Source: Candidatus Aenigmatarchaeota archaeon (GTDB taxonomy: Archaea; Aenigmatarchaeota; Aenigmatarchaeia; QMZP01). From it: a DNA stretch of 49,362 nucleotides. The stretch covers positions 13,267 to 62,628 of the forward strand of contig JAWCLA010000001.1 in assembly GCA_039091855.1 (NCBI GenBank), given 5' to 3'. Made by a program: the position numbers and the translations under genes. Below, piece after piece: positions 4,613-44,706 of this stretch. The notes beneath the pieces are model-generated. The model searched no databases and had not been told where the DNA came from. It was given only the letters and a program-made list of their open reading frames with translations. How positions within the stretch are numbered: position 1 is the first letter of the stretch; each line of letters begins with the position of its first letter.

Positions 4613-4650
4613 TCAGCACAATATTTATTGAAGGATTGCAATATTTTTAT

Positions 4651-7556: not shown

Positions 7557-7600
7557 TTAATCAGCCTTATGTATAATAACAGGGCAAGATAATTATAAAT

Positions 7601-9785: not shown

Positions 9786-9805
9786 ATATATCATTAATGA
9801 TATAT
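9786..9805. promoter_or_regulatory. perfect 20-bp palindrome ATATATCATTAATGATATAT at the padR start, candidate operator
   Basis: Read directly: 9786-9795 is the reverse complement of 9796-9805. It overlaps the first ATG (9797) and ends just before the second in-frame ATG (9806). Confidence 0.4.
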
Positions 9806-12096: not shown

Positions 12097-12097
12097 T

Positions 12098-24774: not shown

Positions 24775-25227
24775 CTATTTAGAATCCAACAATTTTCCCA
24801 CAATTGTCCTTCTTTCATTATACCCGTTTTTCCTGAAAAATTCAAGTGAATTTATATTAGTATTGGTTATTTCAGCCGTTACCTCCATTATTCCCATCAA
24901 GGAGAAAAATTTTTCAGCCTCCTGAAGGAGAAGCTTCCCTATGCCTTGCCTTCTGTATTTTTTTTCAACAAATATTATGTTTACGTAGCCAAATCTGCCA
25001 AAAGGGCCTGACCTCGGCTGAAACCTTATGAAGCCGATGGGTTTTCCTCCTGCTTCGGCAACCTTTATTGTGCCTGGATATTTTTTAATATGTTTTAAAA
25101 TAATTTTCCTTTCAGCGTCCTTGTCCATAACCTTTCCTGGAAAGCTTATCCTTCCTGTTTCCTCCCTGAATGTAAGTACAGCTTCCATATCTTCTGGTAT
25201 GAAATCTCTTATTTTCACATTTGTCAT
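24775..25227 (-). CDS. GNAT-family N-acetyltransferase
   Basis: Acetyl-CoA motif A RRQGIGKLLLQEAEKF. 150 aa. Confidence 0.8.
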   Translation of the reverse strand: MTNVKIRDFIPEDMEAVLTFREETGRISFPGKVMDKDAERKIILKHIKKYPGTIKVAEAGGKPIGFIRFQPRSGPFGRFGYVNIIFVEKKYRRQGIGKLLLQEAEKFFSLMGIMEVTAEITNTNINSLEFFRKNGYNERRTIVGKLLDSK

Positions 25228-25841
25228 CCAATCACCAGAGCAAGAGCAAATCCTGTTATTATGGGGATTAAAAGGTTGTCATCAATAATCCCTTTTCCTT
25301 TTGAGTATATAATTTTTGTTTCTGGAAGAAGTTCTGAAAAAGTCGCTACTATTGCGCCAAATAGAGCAATCAAAGGATTGAAAAACAAGAAGCAAACAAT
25401 AAAGGCTGTTATAAAGAAAGCCGCTGTTCCCTCAAGCGTTTTCCTTCCAATGATTTTAATCCTACCTAACTTTAGTCCTAAAACAGTTGATATTGAGTCA
25501 GAAACAGCCAAAACAATTCCTGCTGCAGAGGCGGCTTTAAGGGGAAAGAGCAAAAATGCAAGTCCTATCCCAAAGTAGAACCAGAAAGCGCCTGCAAATG
25601 GCTTTCTTGAATCCTTCCTCTCGAGCATAAGGGCAACGTCCCTCAGCCTGCACTCGATCCTTGAAAATAATGTTTTTTTGTTTTTCTCAAATTTTGTTAT
25701 GTATTCAGAGTAAATTAGGAAAAGAAATGCGATTAACAGGAAAAACAGCCCTGTAAGGCTCTTTTCGAAAAACTGTCCAAAAAATATGAACAAAACACCG
25801 CTTATATGGACAGCTTGCCTAAGGATTTCATTTCTCATCAT
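25224..25841 (-). CDS. CTP-dependent polyprenol (dolichol) kinase / cytidylyltransferase-family membrane protein (COG0170-like)
   Basis: Multi-TM protein. AVSDSISTVLGLKLGR ... GRKTLEGTAAFFITAF ... DDNLLIP match the SEC59/DGK1/VTE5-type pattern. 4-nt overlap with the GNAT gene. Confidence 0.65.
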   Translation of the reverse strand: MMRNEILRQAVHISGVLFIFFGQFFEKSLTGLFFLLIAFLFLIYSEYITKFEKNKKTLFSRIECRLRDVALMLERKDSRKPFAGAFWFYFGIGLAFLLFPLKAASAAGIVLAVSDSISTVLGLKLGRIKIIGRKTLEGTAAFFITAFIVCFLFFNPLIALFGAIVATFSELLPETKIIYSKGKGIIDDNLLIPIITGFALALVIG

Positions 25842-25872: not shown

Positions 25873-26805
25873 TCAGGATGGAAACATCCCTGTTTTTGCA
25901 AAAAACAGGAAAACACCAAACGCTGCAAAAACCATTATCAGAGAATGTTTCATTCCGGCTGTCGCTGAGTTATCGGAAAGTTGCCCTGCTATCAGACCCG
26001 TGAATATTGCCTGTATTACAACAACTGAGAAAAATATTGCCAAATAGTAACAGGTTATTCCCTCGCTTACGTTTAATATGGAGCATATTCCTGAAAACAA
26101 CCCGCAGGGAAATATTGGACCGTTTTCGCACGGGTTTATGAAAAAAAATGTCATCCCACTTACTCCAGCAGTCATTCCTGCCTGTGATTTCACCATAGGA
26201 ACCATAACATAAACTATCATAACCGCTATTCCGAGAAATATGAAGAAAAGCCCGTACATTACCATAACATGCTGCCTTACGATAGATGCCCTCTCTGCCT
26301 CTGCCTCCTTAAGCATTATGATGTCCTTTGAAACTGCATCAAGAGTGTCAGGTATGCTTCCGCCTGTCTCGAATGAGTGTTTTATTATCCTGAGTGCCTC
26401 GCACATTATCTTGGAGTCTTTCACGCTCTCGTTGAAAATGTCCATAACCCTGAGGAAAGGGGTTCCCCAGGAAAGCCTGTTGTGCATCTTCTGCACTTCA
26501 GGTGTGAGCTTTCCATAATTAGCCTTTGACGCTATTCCTATTGCTTCTGGCAGAGACATTCCTGAACGAGTTGAGTCAGCAAGGTCCCTTATGAAGTTTG
26601 GGAATTGCTCTTCAAGTCCTCTTATCCAGAGAAATTTCGAATATTTGTAAAACACATATGGCACAATGCTGATGAAAACAGATATTATTATAAGGTTGCC
26701 TAGAATGGGAACATCACCAAGGAGAATTCCTATGAATATCAATATTATGCTTATAGCTGTAGGTACAAGGATGAACTTCAGCATTGTGTTTGGCTTGTTT
26801 TTCAT
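25873..26805 (-). CDS. T2SS-F domain pilus platform protein (TadC/FlaJ-like)
   Basis: QFPNFIRDLADSTRSGMSLPEAI ... helical domain flanked by TM helices. Downstream of the secretion ATPase. Confidence 0.75.
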   Translation of the reverse strand: MKNKPNTMLKFILVPTAISIILIFIGILLGDVPILGNLIIISVFISIVPYVFYKYSKFLWIRGLEEQFPNFIRDLADSTRSGMSLPEAIGIASKANYGKLTPEVQKMHNRLSWGTPFLRVMDIFNESVKDSKIMCEALRIIKHSFETGGSIPDTLDAVSKDIIMLKEAEAERASIVRQHVMVMYGLFFIFLGIAVMIVYVMVPMVKSQAGMTAGVSGMTFFFINPCENGPIFPCGLFSGICSILNVSEGITCYYLAIFFSVVVIQAIFTGLIAGQLSDNSATAGMKHSLIMVFAAFGVFLFFAKTGMFPS

Positions 26806-26821
26806 ATTTTACCCTTTGATT

Positions 26822-27724
26822 TTACTCGCTTGGATATATGCCCTTAAGCAGGACTATGAACCCAACTGAAACAGCAGGGACAACGAAAAATACCAGGAAT
26901 GTCTGGAGGAATAGAGAAAATCCACCTCCGCCAACAAGAGGGCTCATTATTGATAGCATAACTATAAAGAAGAGGCTTCCCACTATGACAAGCGTTGTGT
27001 ATATCTCTGTGTAAAGGGATATCTGCTTTGAATAGTTCTCGAGGTTTCTCCTGTACTGTGACATAAAGGTTTTTGTTTTCCCTGAAAGGTATTTCTGGAC
27101 ATCCCCTCCTGTTGTTATTATGGTTGCCATACTCAGGAGTATGTCAGCGAACTGTGGGGATGGTGTTCTGGCTGCTGCCTTCTGAAGTGCATCAGGAAGT
27201 GACATCCCAAGGCTGTTAACATCATTGTATATCCTTCCTGCCTCCTCTCCTATCAGTCCGCCCTTCTTTGAGAGCATATTGAATATCTCAACGGGATTTA
27301 TTCCTGATGAAGCTGATGTCGCCATATGAAAAATCGTGAATGGCAAAATCCTTTCTATTCTTGACCTCCTGCTCTTTGCCCTCATTGAAGGATAGTAATA
27401 ACCAATCCCGAAAATTCCTCCAGCACCTGCAAATGATATTATTATCGCAAGGGTAAATGAGTAAACCATATCATAAGCAGATGTGGTTTTTGAAATCAAT
27501 GGTATAACATAACCAAATATGGTAGCTCCTGAAATAATTAGTATGACATAGCCTATAAGTGCATAAAGTGTTATGGTAGAAATGTATTCCACAACAGGGG
27601 TTTTTATGCCTGCCTTTTTAAGGTTCATTTTAAGAGAATCAAGGTAAATTACATACTTGTCAAAAATGCTTCCAAAAAAACCGTACGCAGTCTTGCTCAA
27701 AGGCATTTTTCCGTGCATTCGCAA
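26822..27724 (-). CDS. T2SS-F domain pilus platform protein (TadB/FlaJ-like)
   Basis: ILPFTIFHMATSASSGINPVEIF ... GMSLPDALQKAA ... GGDVQKYL pattern with N- and C-terminal TM helices. Confidence 0.75.
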   Translation of the reverse strand: MRMHGKMPLSKTAYGFFGSIFDKYVIYLDSLKMNLKKAGIKTPVVEYISTITLYALIGYVILIISGATIFGYVIPLISKTTSAYDMVYSFTLAIIISFAGAGGIFGIGYYYPSMRAKSRRSRIERILPFTIFHMATSASSGINPVEIFNMLSKKGGLIGEEAGRIYNDVNSLGMSLPDALQKAAARTPSPQFADILLSMATIITTGGDVQKYLSGKTKTFMSQYRRNLENYSKQISLYTEIYTTLVIVGSLFFIVMLSIMSPLVGGGGFSLFLQTFLVFFVVPAVSVGFIVLLKGIYPSE

Positions 27725-27742
27725 CTCCTTCTGTTAAAATAA

Positions 27743-29551
27743 TTAAGCAGTTTCTATAAGGTCCATAACCCTGTCTGGGTTTGAGTAATATTCGCTCACT
27801 ATTTTCGCAACTTCCCTGTAATCGTATATTTCCTGCTCAAGCATCCACTCAAGTATGAACTTCCTTCTCATAAGCTCGTTCTTTATCGTTTCTTCTGTCA
27901 CACCCATCCTTCTCGCAAGGGTCTTCATAACAATTGACTTGTTTGCTATCTCAAACTCGTCAGTTATCGGCTTCCATACAAATACTTTGTTGGTAACAGG
28001 CTTGTTTTCCTTAACCCCTATCACTTCAAGAATTGCGTCAGCTCTCCTCACATAGCTTTCCTTTATTCTTGAAAGTGTAAGGAAAACTACTATGTTTATG
28101 TTCTCGAGAAGCGTGGGTGGAAGGGATATAGGAGGTGTTGTAAGCCTGTCTATGAGCTGCTCTATTGATGCGGCGTGTATCGTTGCAAGGGAAGGGTGTC
28201 CTGTTGCCATCTGCTGGAAAAGGACAAAGGCTTCCTTTCCCCTGACCTCACCCATAACTATGTAGTCCGGCCTTTGCCTTAGGGAAGACTTCAGCAAATC
28301 GAAAAGGCTAACCTCGCCCTTCTTTCCCTCTATGCTGAGTGGTGTCCTCGCTACCTCAGGTATCCAGTGTGGGTGGGGAAGCCTGAGTTCGGGGGTGTCC
28401 TCTATGCTTACTATTTTCAGGTTTGGCCTTATGAAAAGCGAGAGGGCGTTAAGAAGGCTTGTCTTTCCTGTTGCGGTTCCTCCTGATATGAGGACTGACA
28501 TCCCGTTGTCTATTGCAAGCCAAAGGTATGCGAGCTGGGTTGAATTAACCGTTCCGTTCCTGAGCATATGTGTAGGTGTTAGTGGCTCCTCTGTGAACTT
28601 TCTTATTGTGAAGTTAGAACCCCTCCTTGCTATGTCAGTTCCCAAAGTTGCCTGCACTCTTGAGCCGTCTGGTAGAGAGGCGTCAAGCAATGGCTCTGCT
28701 ATTGAGATTGTTTTCCTGCACTTCTGCGCAAGCCTCATAACAAAGGTGTTAAGCTCGTCTATGTCCTCGAAGAATATGTTAGTCTTTATTGACCCTATTT
28801 TTGGATCCCTGTGGTAAACATAAATTGGTATTCCGACCCCGTCGCAGGAAACGTCCTCTATGTTAGGGTCGTTCATAAGGGTTTCTATCTTTCCGAGACC
28901 TATGATTTCCTTCTCTATGTAGTAGATGTAAATAAGCTTCTTGCTCTCGTCAATCTGCTCCTTCATCTCGCTTAAAATGTTGAGTATCTCTGCCTTTAGT
29001 ACGCTTTTTGCCCTTATCTCGCCGAGCTTTACGAAATCCACATCGAGCCTTTCCTCAAGCTCCTTTTTGACAAACTCTATTATCTCCCTGTCCCTTTGGG
29101 TAAGCCTTGGCTCAATCACCCTGTAAACAAGCTCCTTTGATTGTGGGTCCCAAACTATGTTTGCGTAAGCGAAAATCAGGTCGCCCTTTTTCGGAAACCT
29201 TGGGATAAGATGGTAGGTTATGTTTATGTGCTGCAGCATCTCCCTTGACTCCTCTATAGCTATTGGTCCTCCTGTGCCAACATATTCTGTTGGTATCTCA
29301 ACCCCTTCCTTTGCAACTTCTGTCTCGTAGGGTTTCTTTTCTTCTTTGCCCTCCTTTCTTATGTCTTTCTTGCTGTAAGGCGCGTAGATTATTGGCTGAT
29401 ATATGAACGAAGGCCCTCCTATGCCCATTTTTTCCTTCTGCTTCTTCTTTATCCATAGCTTATAACCTTTCTTGAACCTTCTTGCTATGTACCTGACTGC
29501 AAAGGGCTTTTTTTCCCTCTGGCTCCTTATCCTGACTTTGGGGATTCTCAT
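27743..29551 (-). CDS. type IV pilus/archaellum-type secretion ATPase (FlaI/PilB-like), second paralog
   Basis: Walker A SGGTATGKTSLLNAL, KIVSIEDTPELRL, RPDYIVMGEVRGKEA, His box SLATIHA. Lys-rich N-terminal extension. Confidence 0.9.
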   Translation of the reverse strand: MRIPKVRIRSQREKKPFAVRYIARRFKKGYKLWIKKKQKEKMGIGGPSFIYQPIIYAPYSKKDIRKEGKEEKKPYETEVAKEGVEIPTEYVGTGGPIAIEESREMLQHINITYHLIPRFPKKGDLIFAYANIVWDPQSKELVYRVIEPRLTQRDREIIEFVKKELEERLDVDFVKLGEIRAKSVLKAEILNILSEMKEQIDESKKLIYIYYIEKEIIGLGKIETLMNDPNIEDVSCDGVGIPIYVYHRDPKIGSIKTNIFFEDIDELNTFVMRLAQKCRKTISIAEPLLDASLPDGSRVQATLGTDIARRGSNFTIRKFTEEPLTPTHMLRNGTVNSTQLAYLWLAIDNGMSVLISGGTATGKTSLLNALSLFIRPNLKIVSIEDTPELRLPHPHWIPEVARTPLSIEGKKGEVSLFDLLKSSLRQRPDYIVMGEVRGKEAFVLFQQMATGHPSLATIHAASIEQLIDRLTTPPISLPPTLLENINIVVFLTLSRIKESYVRRADAILEVIGVKENKPVTNKVFVWKPITDEFEIANKSIVMKTLARRMGVTEETIKNELMRRKFILEWMLEQEIYDYREVAKIVSEYYSNPDRVMDLIETA

Positions 29552-29568
29552 TGCATTTCACCTGTAGC

Positions 29569-29991
29569 TTATGTTATGATAATTTGATTTCCTGTCTTAT
29601 ATATCATAGAATTTCCTGAAGAGCTTACAACCCTTCCCTTCAGTTCAAGGGATTTGTTTATGTTGTAAAGGTCGAAGTGCCTTGTTATGTTTGTATCCAT
29701 TGATGTCAGATTTAAGCCTGTGTTAGAAAGGTATATTATGTAAAACTCATTGCCTGCCCTTGTTGGTATTCTTATCTTTATGGATGCTTCCTCCCTCTCG
29801 CTCAGCTTGATTATGTTTGATGATATATACTCTCCAATTTCTGTGAGCTGGTCTTTGACTGTGAGTTCATTAAAGCTACTTTCATATCCCCTGAACAAGG
29901 CAAGGCTTGAAATGAAGATTATAACGCTAAACATGAATAACAGGACGTGCTCAAATATCAGAGAAAGCGCCTTCATTTTTTTTCGCTTCAT
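29569..29991 (-). CDS. pilin-like protein (N-terminal hydrophobic helix, possible class III signal peptide)
   Basis: MKRKKMKALSLIFEHVLLFMFSVIIFISSLALF. 140 aa. Directly upstream of the ATPase. Confidence 0.5.
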   Translation of the reverse strand: MKRKKMKALSLIFEHVLLFMFSVIIFISSLALFRGYESSFNELTVKDQLTEIGEYISSNIIKLSEREEASIKIRIPTRAGNEFYIIYLSNTGLNLTSMDTNITRHFDLYNINKSLELKGRVVSSSGNSMIYKTGNQIIIT

Positions 29992-30182
29992 ATAAATTTA
30001 TTTAGAAAATGTATTAAAATTCAATTCTTTATGGCTCGGCAAATTACTTCTGGAATTTGAGCAATTGAATAGGCCTAAAATTGTATAGTCTTGGAGAGGT
30101 TTTCATTTTTAGACCTAATTTGGCTTTTCAGGTTCCAGATTTAACCTGGTGCAACCTTCTATTGCAATATTCAGAACATCTT

Positions 30183-30677
30183 TCAAACCCAAAGGATGAA
30201 TTTAAGCCTTGCAGGTTTCTCATCGTAAATCACATACCTTTCCGAAGGTACAGAGAAAGAAGCGCTTTGTGGCGGATAATTTCCCGTAACAGCCTTTGAC
30301 CCACCTGGAACTTCTGCAAGGGTGCCGTTTGAGTACCTTATCTCGAAGTAGAAATTATAGCCTGATATACCAAGAATTGTCTTTATTGTCTCCGAATCCA
30401 TGTTTACAAAATATCCAACCTTTGTTTCGTTAAGGACATTTTCCCTTACAGCAAGCCCGATAGTTTCGACGGTTGTTTCATTCCACTCATTTGGAATTCC
30501 AGGCTGCCTGACAAGGGAATCCGATATCCCCATTGCTGTGCTCTCCATAGAATTCAATAAAATCTGCTGCTGGTTCTGCTGCATTACATAGCTCCATGCA
30601 AACAGAAGTATTACCATCGCTGATATGAATATAAGGAGCGATGCCCCGAAATCCATTGACCATATCTGAGCTTTCAT
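30183..30677 (-). CDS. archaeal type IV pilin-like protein (class III signal peptide)
   Basis: MKAQIWSMDFGASLLIFISAMVILLFAW: KA|Q followed by a hydrophobic helix. Confidence 0.6.
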   Translation of the reverse strand: MKAQIWSMDFGASLLIFISAMVILLFAWSYVMQQNQQQILLNSMESTAMGISDSLVRQPGIPNEWNETTVETIGLAVRENVLNETKVGYFVNMDSETIKTILGISGYNFYFEIRYSNGTLAEVPGGSKAVTGNYPPQSASFSVPSERYVIYDEKPARLKFILWV

Positions 30678-31090
30678 GATATCACAATCTCCCCGTTCCT
30701 GTTGTAAATCCTGTTCTCCCCCTTCCTGAAATGGCCGCTAACGTTTCCCGAAAGCAGGATTTTTGAGTACGTTCGGTTGTTTATCTCCAGAAAAATAAGC
30801 CCTGAACTCACATTAAGCAAGTAGTCAGAGTTCACTATCTGATAAGGAAGCGTTATGTTTGTGGAAAACCCGTCACCCTCAAGAAATGCGGTGTCAATCC
30901 TGCCCTTTACAAGCGAAAGCAATTCCTCTACCTTAAGGTCAATTTGGGAAGAATAAACGTTTTGGCTGTTCTGAAAAACATAAACAGCAGCAACCGACAA
31001 AGCAGCCATAAATATTATGTAAATGAACATAAACTCTATTGATATCTGTGCCTTTTTCCTGAATGAAATGGAAAAATCAACCGAGCGCAT
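30674..31090 (-). CDS. archaeal type IV pilin-like protein (class III signal peptide)
   Basis: Start moved to the internal Met (MRSVDFSISFRKKAQISIEFMFIYIIFMAALSVAAVYVF), giving the QxSxEF class III signature. 4-nt overlap with the next pilin gene. Confidence 0.6.
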   Translation of the reverse strand: MRSVDFSISFRKKAQISIEFMFIYIIFMAALSVAAVYVFQNSQNVYSSQIDLKVEELLSLVKGRIDTAFLEGDGFSTNITLPYQIVNSDYLLNVSSGLIFLEINNRTYSKILLSGNVSGHFRKGENRIYNRNGEIVIS

Positions 31091-31178
31091 TTTTACACCA
31101 TCTTCAACAGAGAGCTGGAAACCTGCTGTATTTACAGGCTTTATATTGTTTATAATTAGGCAGTGCAATTAATTAAAT

Positions 31179-34100
31179 ATGGAAGAGCGGGCGGGATGGA
31201 TATTGTTAATTTTGGCGTTTGTTTTATTAGTAGCGCAAACAGGAGCCGCAACCGAATATGCACCATCTACTTGCATAATACAGAGGTCTACAATTCAGGG
31301 ACATGATATTGTTTACTATGAAACAATAAATTGCAAAATAGATAAAATTTCATATGATGATGAATCAACTGTCTATGTTAGCGGCCTGGGATATATCTTT
31401 ACTTCTTGGAATGGTCTCCCTTCTTCAGTAGGCTCTATTTCCCTGACAATTAAAATGCGCTGTCGTTCACTTGTTTATAATGATTGTAAAAAATTACTTG
31501 GATGTGAAGGCATTGATGGCGAAGAAGTAAATTATAAGAAATATTATCTTGAGTTAATAAGTGATTGCACATCAGATTTGGGGTTTTTGAACCCTGACAC
31601 ACAGATAATTGTTTCGAATGGTGTGAATTCAAAGGAAATAGCCACTGTTGCCGTGACAAACGATTATTCATATTACACTTATGATTTAACAAACATATTA
31701 AAGCCCGCATCTGGATATTATTCCGTAACGATAAATAACAATAAAAAATATGTAACAGGTTCTGGCAGTAGATATGTATTCAAAACCATTTATATAGATT
31801 TAGTCAAATTGGAAGCAGAACCATGTCAATGCTCATCAGGAATATGTTGTGACGGCTGTAACTACAAGCCTTCAGGCACTGCTTGTGGAGCATCTACCTG
31901 CCCTTCTGATTACTATTACCAAAACAGCGGAAACTGCTACAAGGCAGATTACCCAGAATCCTGCACAAAAACCTGCGACAGTTCTGGAAACTGCCAGGAT
32001 TGCTGCAATCCCGTGATTTCATTAAATAACTGGAGCTGCAATCCCTTGTGTCAAAAACCAGACTATACAAGTTCATGTACAGGCCAAACACCGCCAAAAT
32101 GCATAAACTTACCTTCAACCACAACATGTGGTACAAACATATGCAGTTCAAATAACGGGTATGTTCAAAGTTCAGGAAATTGCTATTATAGGGTATATAA
32201 TGACTGCACAAAATACTGCAGCAACGGTATCTGCCAGGACTGCGCTTGCACATACACAGATTATCCCCAAAGCTGGGATTGTGGAATATGCAAAGAAAAG
32301 GACTACTCATCCTGTGCATTAACAACAGGACCGTTGTGCAAGAACTCAGCTCCAGGAACGCCTTGCACGATTTCAGGCCAGCAGGGAAAATGTGACGGAT
32401 ACGGAAACTGCACAGTTCCGCCATCTCTTTCTGTTTCTGCAACCCTTTCTTCATCCTCGATAAAGGCAGGTGAAACCACAATGCTCAAAGGAGAGATAAT
32501 TTGCTCTAACGCAAACTGTGGTTATGTTTATGTGCACGCAAAAAACACATCAGGTTCACCGATAAACCAGATTCCCGGGCTTTCAGTGCAAGGAACAAAT
32601 CCTTACACTTGCGGCTATATGGGTTCAGGGCAAAAATGCTATCCCAATTGGACAATAACAGGAATGTCAGCAGGAACGTACCCTCTTTACCTGATAGCAA
32701 CAAACGGAACACTGATCAACACATCATCTATAGTCACTCTTAACGTAACAGAAATACCTTCGGGCAGTTTGTCCATTTCAGGATTAACGCCTGTTACTAC
32801 GACTGTTGGAATCCCTGTGACAATAAGCGCAAATATTTTATGTTCTGGAATTTCGGGCTCATATTGTGGAAATGTGACCTCCTACCTCTATTACAATTCA
32901 TCCTCTTCAAGTTGGGTTTTGATGGGCCCATCAGGAAGCCTCTACACGACTTCCAATAATCCGCAAAGGCCAACTTCCTGCAGCAATCTCTGGTCAGGAC
33001 AGTCCTGCCCTGTTTACTGGACTGTAAACAGCACAAAGACAGGAACATACCACATAAATATGGTTGCCGATTCCGACAGCCCAAAGGTTGATAACTCAAG
33101 CCATTCAGTCCAGCTTGTTGTAAAGGAAAAGCCTGTTGGTGTTATTTCAATAGAGAGCCTTGGTCTTAATCCTGCCCAGATAAAGACAGGGGAGGAAACT
33201 AATTTAAGTGCGGTTATAAAATGTCTCTCTTCGGACAGCATAACAACTGTATCCTGTGGAAAGGTAAATGCATATACAAGACACAACGGCACAAAAATAG
33301 AGGTTTCAGGCCCTTTGGCAACACAAATCCCAGAAAGGGAATGCGGGACAATGGGTTCGGGTGGAACCTGCAATGTTATATGGAGCATAAAAGGAAACTC
33401 CGTAGGAACATACCTGGTTGACATTTTAGCTTACTCTGACTCTGCTGAAGTCCAGGACAAGACATCTGAAACCAAAACCCTTTCCGTTATAAAGAATATT
33501 GGCACTCTTTCAATACCAAGATTATATGCAACTCCTCCTGAAATAAACATCACAAACACAACAACAATTTCCGTGACAGTCAACTGCTCAACAAGCTATT
33601 GTGGAAACATCAATCTAACGCTCTCTGTTCCATCAGGACTTGTATTTGAAGGCGCAAGCCAGCAGTACTGCCTTTCCTTCCCTTGTAACCTGAACTTTAC
33701 TCTAAGGGGAATCTCCGAAGGCTCCTTTACAGTTTCCCTTGAGGCAAAATCAAATGAGTCAATACCAACAGCAACAAATTCCACATCAATTGTTGTCAAG
33801 GGCCCAAACCCGCTTTTAAGTCTAACCATAACCATACCAAACTCTGCAACTTTGTTTGAACCTGTTCAGGCAAAGACAACAGTTTACTGCCACGTGAAAA
33901 ACTGCGGCAACACCAAAACAGCAATCGCTTACAAAACAACGGAAGGATGGAAAGAGATATCCTATTCAGGCGATGTTCACATTTCAAACCAGCAGCAAAA
34001 TCCAATTTCAACAGAGATGTTCGTAAACCAGTCAAAGGAAATAGTCTGGGAGCTGAACTTTACCAAGACAGGAATTTATGAGATTATGGTTTATGCAAAC

Positions 34101-35783
34101 GGTTCTGATCCTGGGGTCGTAAATGCAACTTACATTACTTTAATAAATGCATCCCCTGTCAGCAGGATTTCAATAGAAATCCTTTCCCCAAACGATGGGG
34201 AGACATTCTCTCTTGGGGAAACCGTTTTCCTTAAGTCAAGAATTACCAAAGGCGGCAATCCTTTGATAGGAATCAAGCCATTTGTTTCACTTTCTTCCTT
34301 TTTGGGAGCAGAACTTTTCGATGACGGCAAGCACAATGACAGCCTGAATGATGATGGAATTTATGGTGGAGAGATTAAGCTGTTGCTTGAAGGCATAAGG
34401 GAAAGGAAGCCCCAATACCTTGCGTTCAGGGCAGGAGATTCGGAAGAAAAGATTTACATATATATCGATCCTTCGCTTTCAGTAACACTAAAAACCGACA
34501 AGTATTCATATGAATGGGGAGAGAACATAACAATATACGGAGAGGTTAAAAGAAAGGATAAAGAAACAAGCTCAGACATTCAGGCATATCTCGAATGCGG
34601 CGGATGGACAGGGCAGGCAAACTCATTTTCCAGCGAAAACGGCTCTTACTTGATAAACTATCAGAACATCTATATGCCCCCATTTTCCGACTGCAACTTA
34701 AGCATACAAATTTTGGCAAAGGACAATTACGAAAACTTCGGCAATGCTATAAAAGAGGTTTTAGTGAAGGCATACAAGGGAGATTTGTATTCCTTATCTT
34801 TCAGTATGGAAAGATACAATTACAGCAGAATGGAAAACATTCCGATAAGGGCAACCGTGAGTTATCTGGGTTCAACTCAAACCAATGCAAATGTAAAATG
34901 CAGCTTTTTAGGAAAGGAAATAACCCTTACCGAAAAAAATGGCGAATATATAGGTTATTATGAAATACCCTTTGACGCTCCTCTTAAGGAAGAAACACTG
35001 AGCTGCTCTGCTTCAGGACCCAAATCAGAAAAGCCCGGACCAGGTAGCACGAAAATAAAGATAGAACCAGTTCCCATTCAGCTATCAATAGTAAGCCCCA
35101 AGCTTTTGCCAAACAACATTATTTACGTGTTTTCAGAAAATATGGTAGCCCTTGTCGTAAATGCAACCTATCCTGACAAAAAACCCGTGCTTGGTGCTGA
35201 AATTCACATAACAATAAATAACCAGACAGTCAAGCTTAAGCATATGGGAAACGGCACATACACAACCGATGAAGGCTGGTTCACAGGCTCTGGTGTTACT
35301 GAGATGTTTTTGTCAGCGCAGGACGCTTACGGAAACAATGGCAATAACAACATAACACTTGTTGTAAACCCAAGCCAGTTCAATTGGTGGTGGCTGCTTC
35401 TGATACCAGCGGGTTTGGCAATTCTGTTTTTCCTATGGTATTATGTTAAATCCAAGGAGCAGCCAAAAGTTCAGATACAGGAGAAAATCATAAGGCTTCC
35501 TGTTACGGAAAGAGTGAGGGAGATTGTTTACAAGCCAATAAGGGTTCCCTCACAACAAAAAATTGACCCGATTACAAAATTGAGAAGGGAGATAGCAGAG
35601 CTTGAGGAAAGGTCAAACACAGTTAATCGCGCAAAGGACATTGCAGAGCAGCAGTATTACAAGAGGCAGATAGACGAGCAGACATTCAACAACCTTATGC
35701 AAAGATATGAGGAGAAGCTTATAGAGATTGACGCCGCAATAAGGGAGAAAAGGAAAAAACTCCGTGAAATGGGAGCTGTGTGA
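31179..35783 (+). CDS. giant (1534 aa) surface protein: signal peptide, tandem Cys-rich modules, about 5 Ig/CARDB-like repeats, C-terminal TM and coiled-coil cytoplasmic tail
   Basis: N-terminal WILLILAFVLLVAQTGAA. Cys-rich region about 31824-32415. Repeated blocks of the form xxxCGxVxxY...G...C...W(T/S)(I/V)...GTYxxxxxA. TM WWWLLLIPAGLAILFFLWYYV (about 35386-35448). Then a roughly 110-aa charged heptad-like tail. Many N-x-S/T sequons. Confidence 0.8.
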   Translation: MEERAGWILLILAFVLLVAQTGAATEYAPSTCIIQRSTIQGHDIVYYETINCKIDKISYDDESTVYVSGLGYIFTSWNGLPSSVGSISLTIKMRCRSLVYNDCKKLLGCEGIDGEEVNYKKYYLELISDCTSDLGFLNPDTQIIVSNGVNSKEIATVAVTNDYSYYTYDLTNILKPASGYYSVTINNNKKYVTGSGSRYVFKTIYIDLVKLEAEPCQCSSGICCDGCNYKPSGTACGASTCPSDYYYQNSGNCYKADYPESCTKTCDSSGNCQDCCNPVISLNNWSCNPLCQKPDYTSSCTGQTPPKCINLPSTTTCGTNICSSNNGYVQSSGNCYYRVYNDCTKYCSNGICQDCACTYTDYPQSWDCGICKEKDYSSCALTTGPLCKNSAPGTPCTISGQQGKCDGYGNCTVPPSLSVSATLSSSSIKAGETTMLKGEIICSNANCGYVYVHAKNTSGSPINQIPGLSVQGTNPYTCGYMGSGQKCYPNWTITGMSAGTYPLYLIATNGTLINTSSIVTLNVTEIPSGSLSISGLTPVTTTVGIPVTISANILCSGISGSYCGNVTSYLYYNSSSSSWVLMGPSGSLYTTSNNPQRPTSCSNLWSGQSCPVYWTVNSTKTGTYHINMVADSDSPKVDNSSHSVQLVVKEKPVGVISIESLGLNPAQIKTGEETNLSAVIKCLSSDSITTVSCGKVNAYTRHNGTKIEVSGPLATQIPERECGTMGSGGTCNVIWSIKGNSVGTYLVDILAYSDSAEVQDKTSETKTLSVIKNIGTLSIPRLYATPPEINITNTTTISVTVNCSTSYCGNINLTLSVPSGLVFEGASQQYCLSFPCNLNFTLRGISEGSFTVSLEAKSNESIPTATNSTSIVVKGPNPLLSLTITIPNSATLFEPVQAKTTVYCHVKNCGNTKTAIAYKTTEGWKEISYSGDVHISNQQQNPISTEMFVNQSKEIVWELNFTKTGIYEIMVYANGSDPGVVNATYITLINASPVSRISIEILSPNDGETFSLGETVFLKSRITKGGNPLIGIKPFVSLSSFLGAELFDDGKHNDSLNDDGIYGGEIKLLLEGIRERKPQYLAFRAGDSEEKIYIYIDPSLSVTLKTDKYSYEWGENITIYGEVKRKDKETSSDIQAYLECGGWTGQANSFSSENGSYLINYQNIYMPPFSDCNLSIQILAKDNYENFGNAIKEVLVKAYKGDLYSLSFSMERYNYSRMENIPIRATVSYLGSTQTNANVKCSFLGKEITLTEKNGEYIGYYEIPFDAPLKEETLSCSASGPKSEKPGPGSTKIKIEPVPIQLSIVSPKLLPNNIIYVFSENMVALVVNATYPDKKPVLGAEIHITINNQTVKLKHMGNGTYTTDEGWFTGSGVTEMFLSAQDAYGNNGNNNITLVVNPSQFNWWWLLLIPAGLAILFFLWYYVKSKEQPKVQIQEKIIRLPVTERVREIVYKPIRVPSQQKIDPITKLRREIAELEERSNTVNRAKDIAEQQYYKRQIDEQTFNNLMQRYEEKLIEIDAAIREKRKKLREMGAV

Positions 35784-35811
35784 TTTATAAATTGGGATGT
35801 AAAAATATTTT

Positions 35812-36480
35812 ATGAGAGCTATGAAAATCACAACAGGCATACCAGGTTTGGACAAGCTAATAGGCAACGGCTTCGAACAGGGAAGCGTTAATCTTGTTAC
35901 AGGAAAGACAGGCACGGGAAAGTCTATATTCTCCCTGCAGTTTCTTATTCACGGCGCAAAGCTTAAGGAAAAGGGGCTTTTCGTCACAACAGAGGAAAGC
36001 AGCGAATACCTGAAGAAGCAGGCTGAGAACATAGGATGGGACATCTCCTCACTCGAGAAGCAGGGCATGCTAAAAATAGTTGCCTTTGAGCCCTTTGACA
36101 TAGACACTCTTATGACAAAGATAACAGAGGCTGTTAGGGCGTTTGGCGCAAAAAGGGTTGCAATAGATTCGCTCAGCATGTTCGAGCTTTACATAGACGA
36201 GCCATTCAAGACGAGGAAGGCAATGTTCAAGTTCCTTGAAAAGCTCAAGGAGATGGGAGTGACCACTGTTGTTACAGCCGAAATACCAGAAGACAGCAAC
36301 AACCTTTCAAGGACAGGGGTTGTGGAATTTCTTGTTGATTCAGTGATAGTTCTTCAGTACCTGAGCATAGCCAAATACAAGAGAAGCCTCATGATAAGGA
36401 AGATGAGGACAAGCAAGCACTCAATGGACATTCACCCATTTGAAATAGGGCCTTCGGGTATAGAGGTAAAGTCAATATAA
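35812..36480 (+). CDS. KaiC/RecA-superfamily single-domain ATPase (ArlH/FlaH-like)
   Basis: GIPGLDKLIGNGFEQGSVNLVTGKTGTGKS (Walker A), Walker B-like VAIDSLS. 222 aa. Confidence 0.8.
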   Translation: MRAMKITTGIPGLDKLIGNGFEQGSVNLVTGKTGTGKSIFSLQFLIHGAKLKEKGLFVTTEESSEYLKKQAENIGWDISSLEKQGMLKIVAFEPFDIDTLMTKITEAVRAFGAKRVAIDSLSMFELYIDEPFKTRKAMFKFLEKLKEMGVTTVVTAEIPEDSNNLSRTGVVEFLVDSVIVLQYLSIAKYKRSLMIRKMRTSKHSMDIHPFEIGPSGIEVKSI

Positions 36481-36488
36481 TTCTGAAA

Positions 36489-36893
36489 TTAACCTGTGGT
36501 TATCTCGACATAATCACCTTTGCTCTCAACGCTTATTATGTAATTTCCCTCTGATTTAGGAATGGTTCCAGTGAGGTTTGCTATAGAATCAGAAAAAACG
36601 TCAGAAATCCCGGAGCCAGACCTCATTTTGAAGTTGATAGTCTTGCCTTCTATCTCAATCTCTTCCACACCCTTCGGGATATATACATTCAGTTTCAACT
36701 TGGCAGGCGGGCCCTGGGCATAAACAAGGTCAGCAGCGCTTGTTATCTGCCTTGCAGCGTTTTTGGCATAGGAAACAGAAAGCTCTTCCCCTGCACCCTG
36801 CTGAACAGAGGAAACATAAACCCAAACCGGTATCACAAACGCGATTGCAAGCGCAAAAATCATCATGTACTCAAAAGAAACCTGCGCTTTCAT
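36489..36893 (-). CDS. archaeal type IV pilin-like protein (class III signal peptide)
   Basis: MKAQVSFEYMMIFALAIAFVIPVWVYV: textbook KAQxSxEY class III signal peptide. Confidence 0.7.
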   Translation of the reverse strand: MKAQVSFEYMMIFALAIAFVIPVWVYVSSVQQGAGEELSVSYAKNAARQITSAADLVYAQGPPAKLKLNVYIPKGVEEIEIEGKTINFKMRSGSGISDVFSDSIANLTGTIPKSEGNYIISVESKGDYVEITTG

Positions 36894-37438
36894 AAATAGT
36901 TATTTGTTTTTCTGTATAAAAATGGACTGGCGGATGAGACAACCCATAAGGAGGCTGTCACCCAGGAAACAGTCTCTGGTATGGCTGCACCAACATATCC
37001 CAAAAAGTAAGCAGCAAAGGAAATCATGCTGAATGCAGAAACCAGAGCGAGCCGTGATTTTTTCTCTGCAAAATAAAGAATTGAAGAAAAAAGCAGGGAA
37101 GCAAACATAATTGAAGAAACTGCCGTATGAATGTGTCCGTAAGACTCGTCAAACATCCCCACAAAAACAAGAAAGAAGGAAGTTAAAGCAAGACCATAAG
37201 ATGTTTTCTCTGCCTGATTTTTCAGTGATTTTAGTGAATAAAGAAGCAACATTATTCCTGATAACTCAACCCCTGAATTGAACAATATTGCACCATAGCC
37301 GTTGGAAGGATTTCCCAGGTCGCTCAGGGCGTTGGTCTCCAGCCTGAACCAAGGCGAGAAAATTATAGACAAGCCTGTGAAAAGGAACAAAACTATAATG
37401 GCTAAAGGTCCAAAAACTGACCATTTTTCAATACTCAT
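36890..37438 (-). CDS. polytopic membrane protein (DUF998-like)
   Basis: 182 aa, 6 predicted TM helices, N-terminal ...NALSDLGN motif. 4-nt overlap with the downstream pilin gene. Confidence 0.45.
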   Translation of the reverse strand: MSIEKWSVFGPLAIIVLFLFTGLSIIFSPWFRLETNALSDLGNPSNGYGAILFNSGVELSGIMLLLYSLKSLKNQAEKTSYGLALTSFFLVFVGMFDESYGHIHTAVSSIMFASLLFSSILYFAEKKSRLALVSAFSMISFAAYFLGYVGAAIPETVSWVTASLWVVSSASPFLYRKTNNYL

Positions 37439-37959: not shown

Positions 37960-38460
37960 ATGAAAGAGTATTTTCAGGTTGTGGACAGGAATGACAGGGT
38001 CATAGGGAAAGCCACAAGGGAGCGCTGTCACTCGAGCAGGGAGATTATACACAGGGCAGTGGCTGTTGTCGTCCTAAACAAAAAAGGCGAAATACTTCTT
38101 GAGAAAAGAAGCCTCAAAAAAGATATGGAGCCGGGAAAGTGGGGGCTTGTCGCAGGTCATGTCAGCCCTGGAGAAAGTTATGAGGAGGCCGCAGTAAGGG
38201 AGATTGAAGAGGAAATAGGGATAAAGCCTGAAAAACTCAGTCAGCTTTTCAAGGTTTTTTTCAGGACAGAAAAGGAATCCGAGATTATAAAATGCTTCTC
38301 CTGCGTTTGCGAAGGCCCTTTCAAATTTAACAGGGAAGAGATGGATGAGGTAAGGTTTTTTTCAAAAGATGAAGTTAAAAAAGCCCTTGAAAAAAGCTTA
38401 ATTAAAATAACAGAATCCGACACTATCATACTGAAGAGATTTTTAAGAATCAGGCAGTAA
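37960..38460 (+). CDS. NUDIX hydrolase (IDI-related subfamily, lacking the IDI catalytic Cys)
   Basis: Nudix box GHVSPGESYEEAAVREIEEEIGI preceded by IIHRAVAVVVLNKKGEILLEKR. ATG at 37960 (the ORF track starts at TTG 37948). Confidence 0.8.
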   Translation: MKEYFQVVDRNDRVIGKATRERCHSSREIIHRAVAVVVLNKKGEILLEKRSLKKDMEPGKWGLVAGHVSPGESYEEAAVREIEEEIGIKPEKLSQLFKVFFRTEKESEIIKCFSCVCEGPFKFNREEMDEVRFFSKDEVKKALEKSLIKITESDTIILKRFLRIRQ

Positions 38461-39247: not shown

Positions 39248-39256
39248 AATTTACCT

Positions 39257-41381: not shown

Positions 41382-41385
41382 CCAA

Positions 41386-42663: not shown

Positions 42664-42778
42664 TATAACCCCTAAAAGATTTTTGATAGTTGAATTTAAA
42701 TGTGAAAACTGCTTATATAAGATATATTTATAAATAAATATAACATACTACTGATTAGTGATATAAATTATATAATTT

Positions 42779-43636: not shown

Positions 43637-43649
43637 TTTCAGTGATTTT

Positions 43650-44702: not shown

Positions 44703-44706
44703 TTTT

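What the first reader, a model, noticed from the sequence alone, without database searches (positions are those of the whole stretch)
25873..37438. Type IV pilus-like operon divergently coupled to a giant adhesin-like protein and a KaiC/ArlH-like ATPase
On the minus strand lie three class III signal-peptide pilins, a FlaI/PilB-type ATPase and two T2SS-F platform proteins. Across an 88-nt AT-rich divergent promoter lies a 1534-aa surface protein with a signal peptide, Cys-rich modules, Ig-like repeats, a TM helix and a roughly 110-aa coiled-coil cytoplasmic tail. It is followed by a single-domain KaiC/ArlH-like ATPase. After that, convergently, come another textbook pilin (MKAQVSFEY) and a DUF998-like membrane protein. 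ArlH-type ATPases normally belong to archaella, yet no archaellins or ArlF/G/C/D/E are present. The coiled-coil tail next to a KaiC-like ATPase hints at inside-out regulation of an adhesin or pilus. For a small-genome archaeon this is a candidate cell-cell (host) attachment apparatus. No prepilin peptidase lies in the window.
Basis: inference. Interest (0 to 1): 0.65.

Follow-up and report, generated by a model that had tools for sequence, protein, structure and literature searches.

The report
Pilus-linked surface protein with KaiC partner
In a tiny hot-spring archaeon (Aenigmatarchaeota), a giant surface protein carries a previously undescribed 60-residue tail inside the cell that, across relatives, is either encoded next to a KaiC-type switch ATPase or fused to the pilus motor ATPase, which suggests a wire between cell-surface adhesion and the pilus machine.

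Summary
The organism is a DPANN archaeon (Aenigmatarchaeota) from a hot-spring metagenome. The region holds two separable modules.

Module A (25873-29991) is the 3' part of a phylum-wide type IV pilus operon. In about 75 related loci this operon also carries a coiled-coil protein, a major pilin and a 206-aa pilin. These three genes are missing here, although a 99.3%-identical MAG contig has them. The join to module B (30027-30181) is not supported by any other assembly.

Module B (30183-36893) is pilin, pilin, then divergently the giant protein and KaiC, then a convergent pilin. It recurs as a unit in relatives.

The ATPase is a true single-domain KaiC. It is not ArlH and not RadA/RadB.

The new result is a roughly 60-aa helical hairpin (YYKRxIDExTF) in the giant's cytoplasmic tail. 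It has no Pfam or PDB match. It occurs on surface proteins of very different sizes, adjacent to KaiC-like genes in at least 7 divergent lineages. It is also fused to the N-terminus of the pilus ATPase in 10 loci.

Best reading: an adhesin-like surface protein coupled to the pilus motor through this hairpin and KaiC. The mechanism is inferred, not shown.

The parts
25873..26805 (-). TadC-like platform subunit (310 aa, one T2SSF domain)
   Evidence: Pfam T2SSF scores 57.9 bits. Orthologues at 34-73% identity follow TadB in all 80 related ATPase loci that extend far enough.
26822..27724 (-). TadB-like platform subunit (300 aa, one T2SSF domain)
   Evidence: Pfam T2SSF scores 57.5 bits. It matches the N-terminal half of ArlJ/FlaJ models (114 bits, far below cut-off). 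Synteny is conserved.
27743..29551 (-). Type IV pilus assembly ATPase (602 aa). It lacks the N-terminal hairpin extension found in a sister clade.
   Evidence: T2SSE 108 bits and PilB3_C 29.8 bits. PDB: afGspE 2OAP 376 bits, FlaI 303, CpaF 157. The NCBIfam FlaI equivalog scores 395 bits, below its cut-off of 550.
29569..29991 (-). pil140, a minor pilin-like protein of the conserved operon
   Evidence: Leader MKRKKMKA|LSLIFE plus a hydrophobic helix. Weak DUF7266 hit. An orthologue lies directly upstream of the ATPase in about 50 loci. The protein is identical in L127.
30027..30181 (.). Join between the pilus operon and the pilin/giant/KaiC module; not corroborated
   Evidence: Identity to the 99.3%-identical contig L127 stops at 30026. 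The Logan contig of run X1 ends at 30185. Contigs of X1 and X3 that match from 30181 rightwards carry a different sequence on their left.
30183..30677 (-). pil164a, pilin-like (MKA|QIWSMDF)
   Evidence: Sequence. Weak DUF7287 hit. Orthologues at 43-59% identity pair with pil164b and lie divergent from hairpin-tailed surface proteins in L004, L017, L019, L112, L114, L116 and L117.
30674..31090 (-). pil164b, pilin-like (..FRKKA|QISIEF), taking the ATG at 31090 as the start
   Evidence: Class_IIIsignal hit at E 0.008, below cut-off. Conserved partner of pil164a.
31091..31178 (.). Divergent intergenic region, 88 nt, 68% A+T, with TATA-like TTTATATT and TTTATAAT
   Evidence: The promoter function is inferred only; the sigma-70 scan is not applicable to archaea.
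31179..31793 (+). Giant protein: signal peptide (aa 1-27) and hypervariable distal domain (aa 28-205)
   Evidence: Hydrophobic N-terminus. No protein among 1.84 billion representatives matches residues 1-198. Identity to homologues is 13-21%.
31794..32414 (+). Giant protein: Cys-rich region (32 Cys in 207 aa, two repeats of about 95 aa)
   Evidence: A contig of run X1 lacks 240 nt here (31990-32231), consistent with repeat-number variation.
32415..35378 (+). Giant protein: tandem Ig-like beta-sandwich domains. These are Cys-paired repeats (aa 413-985) and family-conserved membrane-proximal domains (aa 986-1400).
   Evidence: AF2 model of aa 1102-1534 has pLDDT 81.5 and shows three beta-sandwiches. 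Foldseek matches the tandem Ig domains of SiiE, MpIBP, MG domains and SbsB at E 1e-9 to 5e-12. Residues 990-1200 are shared by most of the 82 family members.
35379..35567 (+). Giant protein: transmembrane helix (about aa 1403-1425) and conserved, predicted-disordered linker (IQEKIIRLPxxERVREIVY)
   Evidence: invariant columns. Linker identity to homologues is 53-68%.
35568..35768 (+). Giant protein: cytoplasmic helical hairpin domain (aa 1464-1530) with YYKRQIDEQTF at the inter-helix turn
   Evidence: AF2 predicts helices 1464-1494 and 1500-1530 at pLDDT 84-95. An 18-sequence alignment has almost no internal gaps (A3). An HMM built from surface-protein tails alone hits the ATPase N-extensions at E 4e-16 to 4e-11 (Z = 1e6), with no other hit among 17,112 ORFs. 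No Pfam or PDB family matches.
35812..36480 (+). Single-domain KaiC-family ATPase (222 aa; Walker A GKTGTGKS)
   Evidence: Pfam KaiC 216.8 bits. PDB: KaiC 235 bits, PH0186 159, FlaH 35-36. More than 185 orthologues at 55-88% identity, mostly Aenigmatarchaeota. The X1 contig 35365-36758 spans the giant's end, KaiC and the pil134 3' end with 0 mismatches.
36489..36893 (-). pil134, pilin-like (MKA|QVSFEY), convergent with KaiC
   Evidence: Orthologues at 52-72% identity lie convergent after KaiC in L001, L002, L005, L008-L010 and L111-L115, including L010, which has no giant gene.
36890..37438 (-). DUF998 membrane protein, co-directional with pil134
   Evidence: Pfam DUF998 59.8 bits. Conserved after pil134 in L008/L009, L113 and L115. 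Membership in the system is uncertain.

Best explanation
The region contains two modules of an Aenigmatarchaeota (DPANN) cell-surface apparatus.

**Module A** is the ATPase, split TadB/TadC platform and minor-pilin end of the phylum's conserved type IV pilus operon. It is truncated here.

**Module B** is a conserved cassette: two pilin-like genes, then divergently a type-I membrane surface protein followed by a single-domain KaiC-like ATPase, then a convergent pilin.

The surface protein looks like an adhesin. It has a hypervariable distal tip, Cys-rich modules, a stalk of Ig-like domains, one TM helix and a conserved cytoplasmic tail that ends in a roughly 60-aa helical hairpin.

**Inferred mechanism.** The hairpin is a cytoplasmic docking or oligomerisation module. 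It ties the surface protein to a hexameric RecA-type ATPase, either the neighbouring KaiC-like protein, the pilus ATPase, or both. KaiC then acts as the nucleotide- or phosphorylation-dependent switch. This would resemble the way membrane-anchored ArlX and KaiC-like ArlH sit on ArlI in the archaellum. Surface contact and pilus assembly or retraction would thereby be coupled.

**Shown versus inferred.**
- Shown: gene identities, protein architecture, homology of the hairpin in both contexts, and the neighbourhood statistics.
- Inferred: binding partners, direction of signalling, and the adhesion or host-attachment role.
For: 1. **Components.** T2SSE ATPase, two T2SSF proteins, four class-III-leader proteins and KaiC.
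2. **Module B recurs as a unit.** It recurs as a whole in L112 and L114; L004+L005, two contigs of one MAG, together hold the same genes. L117 has the pilins, the giant homologue and KaiC; L116 has the pilins and the giant homologue. L017 and L019 keep only the pilin pair plus the tailed protein. Housekeeping genes lie beyond pil164a.
3. **Tail-to-KaiC adjacency.** The tailed surface protein is immediately adjacent to a KaiC-like gene in these lineages:
   - the window clade (84-88% KaiC identity);
   - L117 (59%), L118 (58%) and L003 (52%);
   - L121 (46%) and L122 (44%);
   - L120/L123 (37-39%, divergent orientation);
   - L028, where the KaiC gene (41%) lies 2.2 kb away.

   In L003 and L120-L123 the pair stands alone among housekeeping genes.
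4. **Fusion to the pilus ATPase.** The same hairpin forms part of the N-terminal extension of the pilus ATPase. It lies in a single ORF of 806-849 aa, within otherwise orthologous pil140-ATPase-TadB-TadC operons. This holds in L020, L022, L023, L025, L026, L064, L067, L074, L098 and L119. The homology is statistically robust.
5. **Selection pattern.** The tail is much better conserved than the ectodomain: hairpin 49-69% and linker 53-68% identity, against 13-21% for the tip.
6. **Structure.** The AF2 model shows Ig-like domains, a TM helix, a disordered linker and a helix-turn-helix. Foldseek finds the tandem Ig stalks of giant adhesins.
7. **Precedents.** ArlX (a single-TM protein with a ring-forming cytosolic domain) binds ArlH and ArlI (PMC8978795). 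KaiC ATPases and S-layer-like proteins are associated with archaeal T4P loci (PMC4858521).
Against: - No interaction was tested, and AF-multimer was not available.
- KaiC orthologues of the same family lie between Memo and ArgRS with no pilus gene nearby in L011-L014. KaiC may therefore be a general regulator.
- No KaiC gene is adjacent to the ATPase-fused hairpins.
- About half of the tailed proteins with enough flanking sequence have no KaiC neighbour: L016/L116, L017, L018, L027 and L030.
- In this window the canonical operon lacks its major pilin, and the join to module B is unsupported.
- Module B also travels with a different pilus system in L110 and L118. The cognate motor is therefore unclear.
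- A coiled-coil hairpin could simply mediate self-association.
Confidence: 0.55

Rival explanations
1. Neighbours without coupling. The giant protein is a general envelope, S-layer-like or adhesin protein. KaiC is a housekeeping regulator. The pilus operon is unrelated, and their proximity here is a lineage-specific accident or an assembly chimera.
For: - The join at 30027-30181 is not spanned by any public contig, and run X3 shows 365 nt of alternative sequence.
- L127 is 99.3% identical up to position 30026. From there it continues with pil206, the major pilin and cc149 instead.
- None of the 80 ATPase loci has a separate tailed gene nearby.
- KaiC orthologues lie in a Memo/ArgRS context.
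- Foldseek also hits the S-layer protein SbsB.
Against: - This does not explain the hairpin being fused to the pilus ATPase in 10 loci.
- It does not explain the pilin pair flanking the giant in at least 7 loci.
- It does not explain the convergent pilin after KaiC even where the giant is absent.
- It does not explain KaiC adjacency across at least 7 KaiC lineages.
- The family is rare: 82 hits among 1.84 billion representatives. That is unlike a general S-layer protein.
Confidence: 0.2
2. The hairpin is only a self-association (clustering or oligomerisation) module. On the ATPase it helps hexamer or membrane-proximal assembly. On surface proteins it bundles tails. KaiC regulates something else, for example transcription of the cassette, as CirA does for arl genes in Haloferax.
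For: - The two helices have a coiled-coil character.
- No KaiC lies next to the fused ATPases.
- CirA, a KaiC-like protein, lowers arl gene transcription; whether it does so directly or through other factors is not known (PMC10983859).
- L098 (fused form) and L003 (tailed form) come from one MAG, so homotypic pairing between the two forms is possible.
Against: - The invariant residues sit at the inter-helix turn (YYKRxIDExTF), not in heptad positions. This looks more like a binding epitope.
- The tight tail-KaiC gene pairing, sometimes with only 17-54 nt between the genes, suggests a shared complex.
Confidence: 0.2
3. One reading: an archaellum-derived ArlH-type ATPase recruited to an adhesin or pilus.
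For: ArlH is KaiC-like and single-domain, and weak model hits exist (62 bits).
Against: - The ArlH equivalog cut-off of 215 bits is not met.
- The protein scores 235 bits to KaiC CI and 159 bits to PH0186, but 35-36 bits to solved FlaH structures.
- No archaellin or ArlC/D/E/F/G/X family appeared in any Pfam or NCBIfam scan of the window's ORFs.
Confidence: 0.03

Closest known systems
Archaeal Tad/Epd-like type IV pili. The ATPase is related to A. fulgidus GspE (2OAP) and FlaI. The DPANN T4P clusters are described in PMC4858521, PMC6393860 and PMC9563170.
   Same: - A T2SSE ATPase, T2SSF platform proteins and several class-III-leader pilin-like proteins.
- The platform is split into two single-domain genes, as in Tad and Epd systems.
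- Three of the four pilins have Gln at +1. From my own knowledge, this is typical of EppA-processed Methanococcus pilins.
- KaiC genes in DPANN pilus clusters have been noted before.
   Different: - No prepilin peptidase and no major pilin lie in this window.
- The canonical Aenigmatarchaeota operon adds a conserved cytoplasmic coiled-coil protein (cc149).
- The tailed surface protein and its hairpin have not been described in the papers I could read.
Archaellum motor sub-complex ArlX (or ArlCDE)-ArlH-ArlI
   Same: A single-pass membrane protein with a helical cytoplasmic part, a single-domain KaiC-like protein and a FlaI-family ATPase are encoded together or linked by fusion. ArlX binds both ArlH and ArlI (PMC8978795).
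   Different: - The KaiC here is not ArlH (62 bits against a cut-off of 215).
- The membrane protein has a huge extracellular part and the opposite topology to ArlX: the TM is near the C-terminus and the cytoplasmic domain is only about 110 aa.
- There are no archaellins or stator proteins.
- Sequence homology of the hairpin to ArlX was not testable.
Giant bacterial Ig-repeat adhesins (SiiE, MpIBP) and DPANN giant surface proteins (SPEARE of Nanohaloarchaeota)
   Same: A long stalk of tandem beta-sandwich domains and a variable distal end. A role in cell-cell contact is presumed in a symbiont lineage.
   Different: - It is anchored by a C-terminal TM helix with a conserved cytoplasmic signalling-type tail, and is not secreted by T1SS.
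- There is no sequence similarity, only fold-level similarity of generic Ig domains.
- No SPEARE domains were detected.
Archaeal single-domain KaiC-like ATPases (PH0186 type; CirA of Haloferax; arCOG01171-like 'signal transduction hubs')
   Same: One KaiC domain, an intact Walker A motif, and an association with pilus or archaellum genes (PMC4858521, PMC10983859).
   Different: Here the recurrent partner is a transmembrane surface protein with a specific hairpin tail. As far as I could check, no such partner is among those listed in PMC4858521 (a KaiB-like component and an alpha-helical protein distantly similar to the DEATH domain). The 2017 mBio paper on KaiC hubs was not available.

Membership tests
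Archaeal type IV pilus (Tad/Epd-like) system | PilB/FlaI-family secretion ATPase (T2SSE) | tested here: met
   T2SSE 108 bits against a cut-off of 24.9. afGspE 376 bits and FlaI 303 bits.
Archaeal type IV pilus (Tad/Epd-like) system | Polytopic platform protein(s) with a T2SSF domain | tested here: met
   Two adjacent genes with one T2SSF domain each, 57.9 and 57.5 bits against a cut-off of 25.2.
Archaeal type IV pilus (Tad/Epd-like) system | Pilins with a class III signal peptide | tested here: inconclusive
   Four proteins have a K/R-A|Q/L leader plus a hydrophobic helix. Pfam Class_IIIsignal, DUF7266 and DUF7287 score only E 0.001-0.01, below cut-off. No cleavage data exist.
Archaeal type IV pilus (Tad/Epd-like) system | Major pilin encoded with the machinery | tested here: not met
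   The major pilin and pil206, present in about 75 related loci and in the 99.3%-identical L127, have no tblastn hit anywhere in the window.
Archaeal type IV pilus (Tad/Epd-like) system | Prepilin peptidase (A24: PibD, EppA or FlaK) | tested here: not met
   There is no Peptidase_A24 hit in any window ORF scanned and no GxGD motif. It may lie elsewhere in the genome.
ArlH (archaellum KaiC-like protein) | Score above the ArlH equivalog threshold | tested here: not met
   NF052589 scores 62.4 bits against a cut-off of 215. FlaH structures 4YDS and 4WIA score 36 and 35 bits.
ArlH (archaellum KaiC-like protein) | Encoded in an arl cluster with archaellins, ArlF/G and ArlC/D/E or ArlX | tested here: not met
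   None of these families was found among the window ORFs.
KaiC family (PF06745) | KaiC/RecA-like domain above the gathering score, with a Walker A motif | tested here: met
   216.8 bits against a cut-off of 26.6. Walker A is GKTGTGKS. KaiC CI domain scores 235 bits.
KaiC family (PF06745) | Duplicated CI+CII domains and KaiA/KaiB partners (clock-type KaiC) | tested here: not met
   It has a single 222-aa domain, and no KaiB or KaiA family appeared in the Pfam scans of the window's ORFs. It is therefore a PH0186-type single-domain KaiC-like protein.
RadA/RadB recombinases | Score above the RadA/RadB equivalog thresholds | tested here: not met
   RadB 31 bits against 172. RadA (sms) 42 bits against 403. 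Archaeal RadA 22-24 bits against 259-361.
ArlX-like membrane scaffold | Single TM plus a cytoplasmic helical domain that binds KaiC-like and FlaI-like ATPases | not testable with these tools
   The architecture is analogous, and the genetic links to KaiC and to the ATPase are shown. No ArlX profile and no interaction prediction were available.
S-layer protein | Match to a known S-layer domain family; abundant and widely conserved in the lineage | tested here: not met
   There is no Pfam or NCBIfam S-layer family hit. Only 82 relatives exist among 1.84 billion representatives. Foldseek similarity to SbsB is a generic Ig fold.

The most novel reading that the evidence does not exclude
The roughly 60-aa YYKRxIDExTF hairpin is a dedicated adaptor. 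It plugs extracellular adhesins of DPANN archaea into a KaiC-gated type IV pilus motor. This would be a transmembrane clutch, integrin-like in logic and ArlX/ArlH/ArlI-like in parts. Contact of the hypervariable tip with a host cell would switch pilus extension or retraction, or KaiC state would switch adhesin clustering. The domain can sit either on the adhesin or on the ATPase itself.
Probability: 0.25. Interest if true: 0.8.

Novelty: new variant of a known kind. Interest (0 to 1): 0.55.

Why it matters
DPANN archaea are thought to live attached to other cells, but the molecules that make and control that contact are almost unknown. This analysis gives three things:

- A defined, rare protein family: hairpin-tailed Ig-repeat surface proteins.
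- A conserved two-gene unit of that family with KaiC.
- A fusion that links it to the pilus ATPase.

Together these yield concrete, testable protein-protein interaction hypotheses for how an archaeal pilus is regulated from, or signals to, the cell surface. The hairpin is also a candidate for a new domain family entry.

The analysis also shows that the apparent 'operon coupling' in this contig should not be taken at face value.

Tried and rejected
- **Homologue search with the full-length giant.** The word-indexed search returned only the query itself. The exhaustive search was needed.
- **AF2 of giant residues 1-420 without an alignment.** It failed (pLDDT 36.6) and was not used.
- **Pfam, NCBIfam and PDB sequence searches of the giant and of the hairpin.** They gave only sub-threshold coiled-coil noise. 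My recollection that the motif resembles SHOCT was not supported by any hit, and I dropped it.
- **tRNA and Rfam scans.** Nothing was found.
- **The sigma-70 promoter/terminator scan.** It is at or below the shuffle expectation and not meaningful for an archaeon.
- **Genome scan with pil164a alone.** It found one locus.
- **RNA evidence.** The one metatranscriptome of the same study has no contig on the region.
- **up205 (25224-25841).** I suspected a prepilin peptidase or polyprenol kinase. It has no Pfam or NCBIfam hit and no GxGD motif.
- **ArlH and RadA/RadB assignments for the KaiC-like gene.** They were rejected on scores.
- **'Mutually exclusive' distribution of the tail-borne and ATPase-borne hairpin.** It was rejected because L003 and L098 come from the same MAG.

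Full report
**1. What is in the sequence**

On the minus strand:
- Two single-domain T2SSF proteins lie at 25873-26805 and 26822-27724.
- A 602-aa T2SSE ATPase with a PilB3_C end lies at 27743-29551.
- Three small proteins have class-III-type leaders: pil140, pil164a and pil164b.

On the plus strand:
- A 1534-aa protein starts at 31179. It has no Pfam family.
- A 222-aa KaiC-domain protein follows it.

Convergent with these are pil134 (MKAQVSFEY) and a DUF998 protein.

The 88-nt divergent spacer exists if pil164b starts at the ATG at 31090. It is 68% A+T and has TATA-like boxes.

Related contigs name the organism as Candidatus Aenigmatarchaeota (DPANN). The public runs that hold the sequence are hot-spring metagenomes.

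**2. The ATPases**

The pilus ATPase is closest to A. fulgidus GspE (376 bits) and FlaI (303 bits). It falls below the FlaI equivalog cut-off.

The small ATPase is a genuine KaiC-family domain:
- Pfam KaiC scores 216.8 bits.
- It scores 235 bits to the KaiC CI domain and 159 bits to PH0186.
- It is not ArlH (62 bits against a cut-off of 215; 35-36 bits to solved FlaH structures).
- It is not RadA/RadB.

It belongs to a well-conserved family of about 220 aa, mostly from Aenigmatarchaeota, at 55-88% identity.

KaiC-family genes next to non-archaellum archaeal pilus loci were reported by Makarova et al. 2016 (PMC4858521). They were also noted in DPANN pilus clusters (PMC9563170).

**3. The giant protein**

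From N- to C-terminus it has:

| Residues | Feature |
|---|---|
| 1-27 | Signal peptide |
| 28-205 | Distal domain |
| 206-412 | Cys-rich region (32 Cys) |
| 413-1400 | Tandem beta-sandwich domains |
| about 1403-1425 | One TM helix |
| 1426-1534 | 110-aa tail |

- All 34 N-glycosylation sequons lie outside the cell.
- The AF2 model of residues 1102-1534, built with eight aligned sequences, has pLDDT 81.5. It shows three Ig-like domains, the TM helix and a disordered linker. Two helices (1464-1494 and 1500-1530) follow, with YYKRQIDE at the turn between them.
- Foldseek finds the tandem Ig stalks of giant adhesins (SiiE, MpIBP), MG domains, cadherins and SbsB. This is a generic fold-level likeness.
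- An exhaustive HMMER search of residues 1-1200 against 1.84 billion representatives found only 82 proteins at E up to 1e-3. None matched residues 1-198.
- Most full-length hits have the same plan (signal peptide, C-terminal TM, charged tail). 42 of 81 carry the tail motif, even though the query lacked it.
- Identity to homologues rises from 13-21% at the tip to 49-69% in the hairpin. A variable tip on a conserved anchor is the pattern expected of a contact protein.

**4. The hairpin domain**

The last 60 or so residues align almost without internal gaps across 18 diverse sequences (A3). No Pfam or PDB family matches them.

The hairpin occurs in two contexts.

(a) It ends the cytoplasmic tail of surface proteins ranging from 145 aa to more than 2176 aa. 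These come from Aenigmatarchaeota, from a MAG labelled Nanohalarchaeota and from unclassified archaeal MAGs.

(b) It forms part of a soluble N-terminal extension of the pilus ATPase. It lies in one ORF of 806-849 aa, in L020, L022, L023, L025, L026, L064, L067, L074, L098 and L119. In L025 the ORF is longer because of insertions, and in L119 it is cut by the contig end.

An HMM built only from context (a) finds every context (b) sequence at E 4e-16 to 4e-11, with Z set to 1e6. It finds nothing else among 17,112 six-frame ORFs.

The two forms are not mutually exclusive. L003 (tail form) and L098 (fused form) come from one MAG.

**5. Neighbourhoods**

*Tail protein and KaiC.* The tailed surface protein has a KaiC-like gene as its immediate neighbour in these lineages:

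| Locus | KaiC identity to window | Arrangement |
|---|---|---|
| Window clade | 84-88% | Tandem |
| L117 | 59% | Tandem |
| L118 | 58% | Tandem |
| L003 | 52% | Tandem |
| L121 | 46% | Tandem |
| L122 | 44% | Tandem |
| L120/L123 | 37-39% | Divergent |
| L028 | 41% | KaiC gene 2.2 kb away |

- In L003 and L120-L123 the pair stands alone among housekeeping genes.
- It is therefore a two-gene unit, conserved across at least 7 divergent KaiC lineages.
- It is not universal. L016/L116, L017, L018, L027 and L030 lack a KaiC neighbour.
- KaiC orthologues in L011-L014 lie between Memo and ArgRS.

*Pilin genes.*
- pil164b/pil164a lie divergent from the tailed protein in the window, L004, L017, L019, L112, L114, L116 and L117.
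- pil134 follows KaiC convergently in the window clade and in L010, where the giant is absent.

**6. The pilus operon and the join**

Across 80 related ATPase loci the operon is cc149 (a cytoplasmic coiled-coil protein), one or more major pilins, pil206, pil140, ATPase, TadB and TadC. A conserved unknown membrane protein often follows.

The window has only pil140 to TadC. L127, from an NCBI MAG, is 99.3% identical to window 28784-30026 and encodes an identical pil140. From 30026 onward L127 continues with pil206, the major pilin and cc149, while the window diverges. These three genes have no hit anywhere in the window.

On the other side of the join:
- Contigs of runs X1 and X3 match the window from 30181 rightwards.
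- To the left of 30181 they carry a different sequence, 33 nt in X1 and 365 nt in X3.
- The X1 contig that covers pil140 ends at 30185.

The closest relatives keep the two modules on different contigs: L031 versus L004, and L062 versus L002.

The physical coupling of the ATPase operon to the giant gene is therefore either a strain-specific rearrangement or an assembly join. It cannot be used as evidence of function. The functional link rests on sections 4 and 5 instead.

**7. A second pilus system**

The window also encodes, at 351-9754:
- a second T2SSE ATPase (3038-4612, 34% identical to the first);
- pilin-like proteins;
- a LamG-type pilin-like protein;
- a weak T2SSF platform.

In L110, orthologues of this second system (ATPase 63%, p411 41%) lie next to pil164b/pil164a. 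In L118 the order is tail protein, KaiC, a 1402-aa pilin-like protein, then a p411-like protein. Module B may therefore serve this system, the canonical one, or both.

**8. Interpretation**

The best reading is an adhesin-like surface protein whose conserved cytoplasmic hairpin docks a RecA-type hexameric ATPase: the neighbouring KaiC-like switch, the pilus ATPase, or both.

The nearest analogue in logic is ArlX/ArlCDE-ArlH-ArlI of the archaellum. There, a membrane-anchored ring-forming protein binds both the KaiC-like ArlH and the motor ATPase (PMC8978795).

Membership in that family fails: the ATPase is not ArlH and the membrane protein's topology is different. The claim is therefore 'works like', not 'is'.

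The rivals remain open because no interaction could be computed or measured here:
- unrelated neighbours;
- a pure self-association module with KaiC acting on transcription, as CirA lowers arl transcription in Haloferax (PMC10983859).

**9. Novelty**

Already known:
- pilus clusters with KaiC genes and S-layer-like proteins in archaea, including DPANN (PMC4858521, PMC6393860, PMC9563170).

New, as far as the accessible literature and libraries show:
- the hairpin domain;
- its pairing with KaiC as a two-gene unit;
- its alternative fusion to the pilus ATPase.

I rate this a new variant of a known kind.

Noticed in passing
window 351-9754: A second type IV pilus-like locus lies here. Its parts are:
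- a pilin-like 411-aa protein;
- a Cys-rich secreted 245-aa protein;
- a 208-aa protein with a C-terminal TM;
- a second T2SSE ATPase (3038-4612);
- a LamG/3-keto-disaccharide-hydrolase-type pilin-like 503-aa protein;
- a 717-aa polytopic protein with a weak T2SSF hit.

Orthologues in L110 and L118 sit next to pil164a/b or next to the tail protein plus KaiC.
   Followed up: partly
L127 283-1828, and about 75 of loci L020-L109: The canonical Aenigmatarchaeota pilus operon begins with a conserved 149-aa cytoplasmic coiled-coil protein (cc149, 28-90% identity across loci). Major pilin(s) and a 206-aa pilin follow it. cc149 has no Pfam family. It may correspond to the coiled-coil arCOG07564 mentioned in PMC4858521, but I did not test this.
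   Followed up: partly
L025 5476-11043: The pilus ATPase ORF is 1856 aa. Two insertions of about 1.5 kb interrupt conserved ATPase segments, and the reading frame stays open. The insertions look like two inteins.
   Followed up: no
window 31990-32231; 32617; 34636: Population variants occur inside the giant gene. One contig of run X1 skips 240 nt (80 aa) in the Cys-rich repeats. In-frame 3-nt deletions occur in runs X3 and X2. This fits a variable surface protein.
   Followed up: no
window 25224-25841 (-): A 205-aa polytopic membrane protein lies directly after TadC. Orthologues at 31-65% identity hold the same position in about 17 related loci. It has no Pfam or NCBIfam family and no GxGD motif, so it is not a recognisable prepilin peptidase.
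   Followed up: partly
window 30053-30093: A 41-nt stretch inside the unsupported join also occurs on an unrelated 276-nt contig of run X1. It is a short repeat that could have misled an assembler or mediated recombination.
   Followed up: partly
window 38450-46239: A cluster of genes lies here: an amino-acid-kinase-family protein, a UbiX-like flavoprotein, both aconitase-X subunits, a UbiD-like protein and a GHMP kinase. It looks like the archaeal-type mevalonate pathway. That reading is from my own knowledge of the pathway.
   Followed up: no
window 16912-18983: Two adjacent D-Ala-D-Ala-ligase-type ATP-grasp genes lie in an archaeon that should have no murein.
   Followed up: no
window 9797-13899: A run of genes lies here: a PadR regulator, a MacB/FtsX permease, an ABC ATPase, a CARDB/NEW3 surface protein and a rhomboid protease. 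It is another envelope-related cluster.
   Followed up: no
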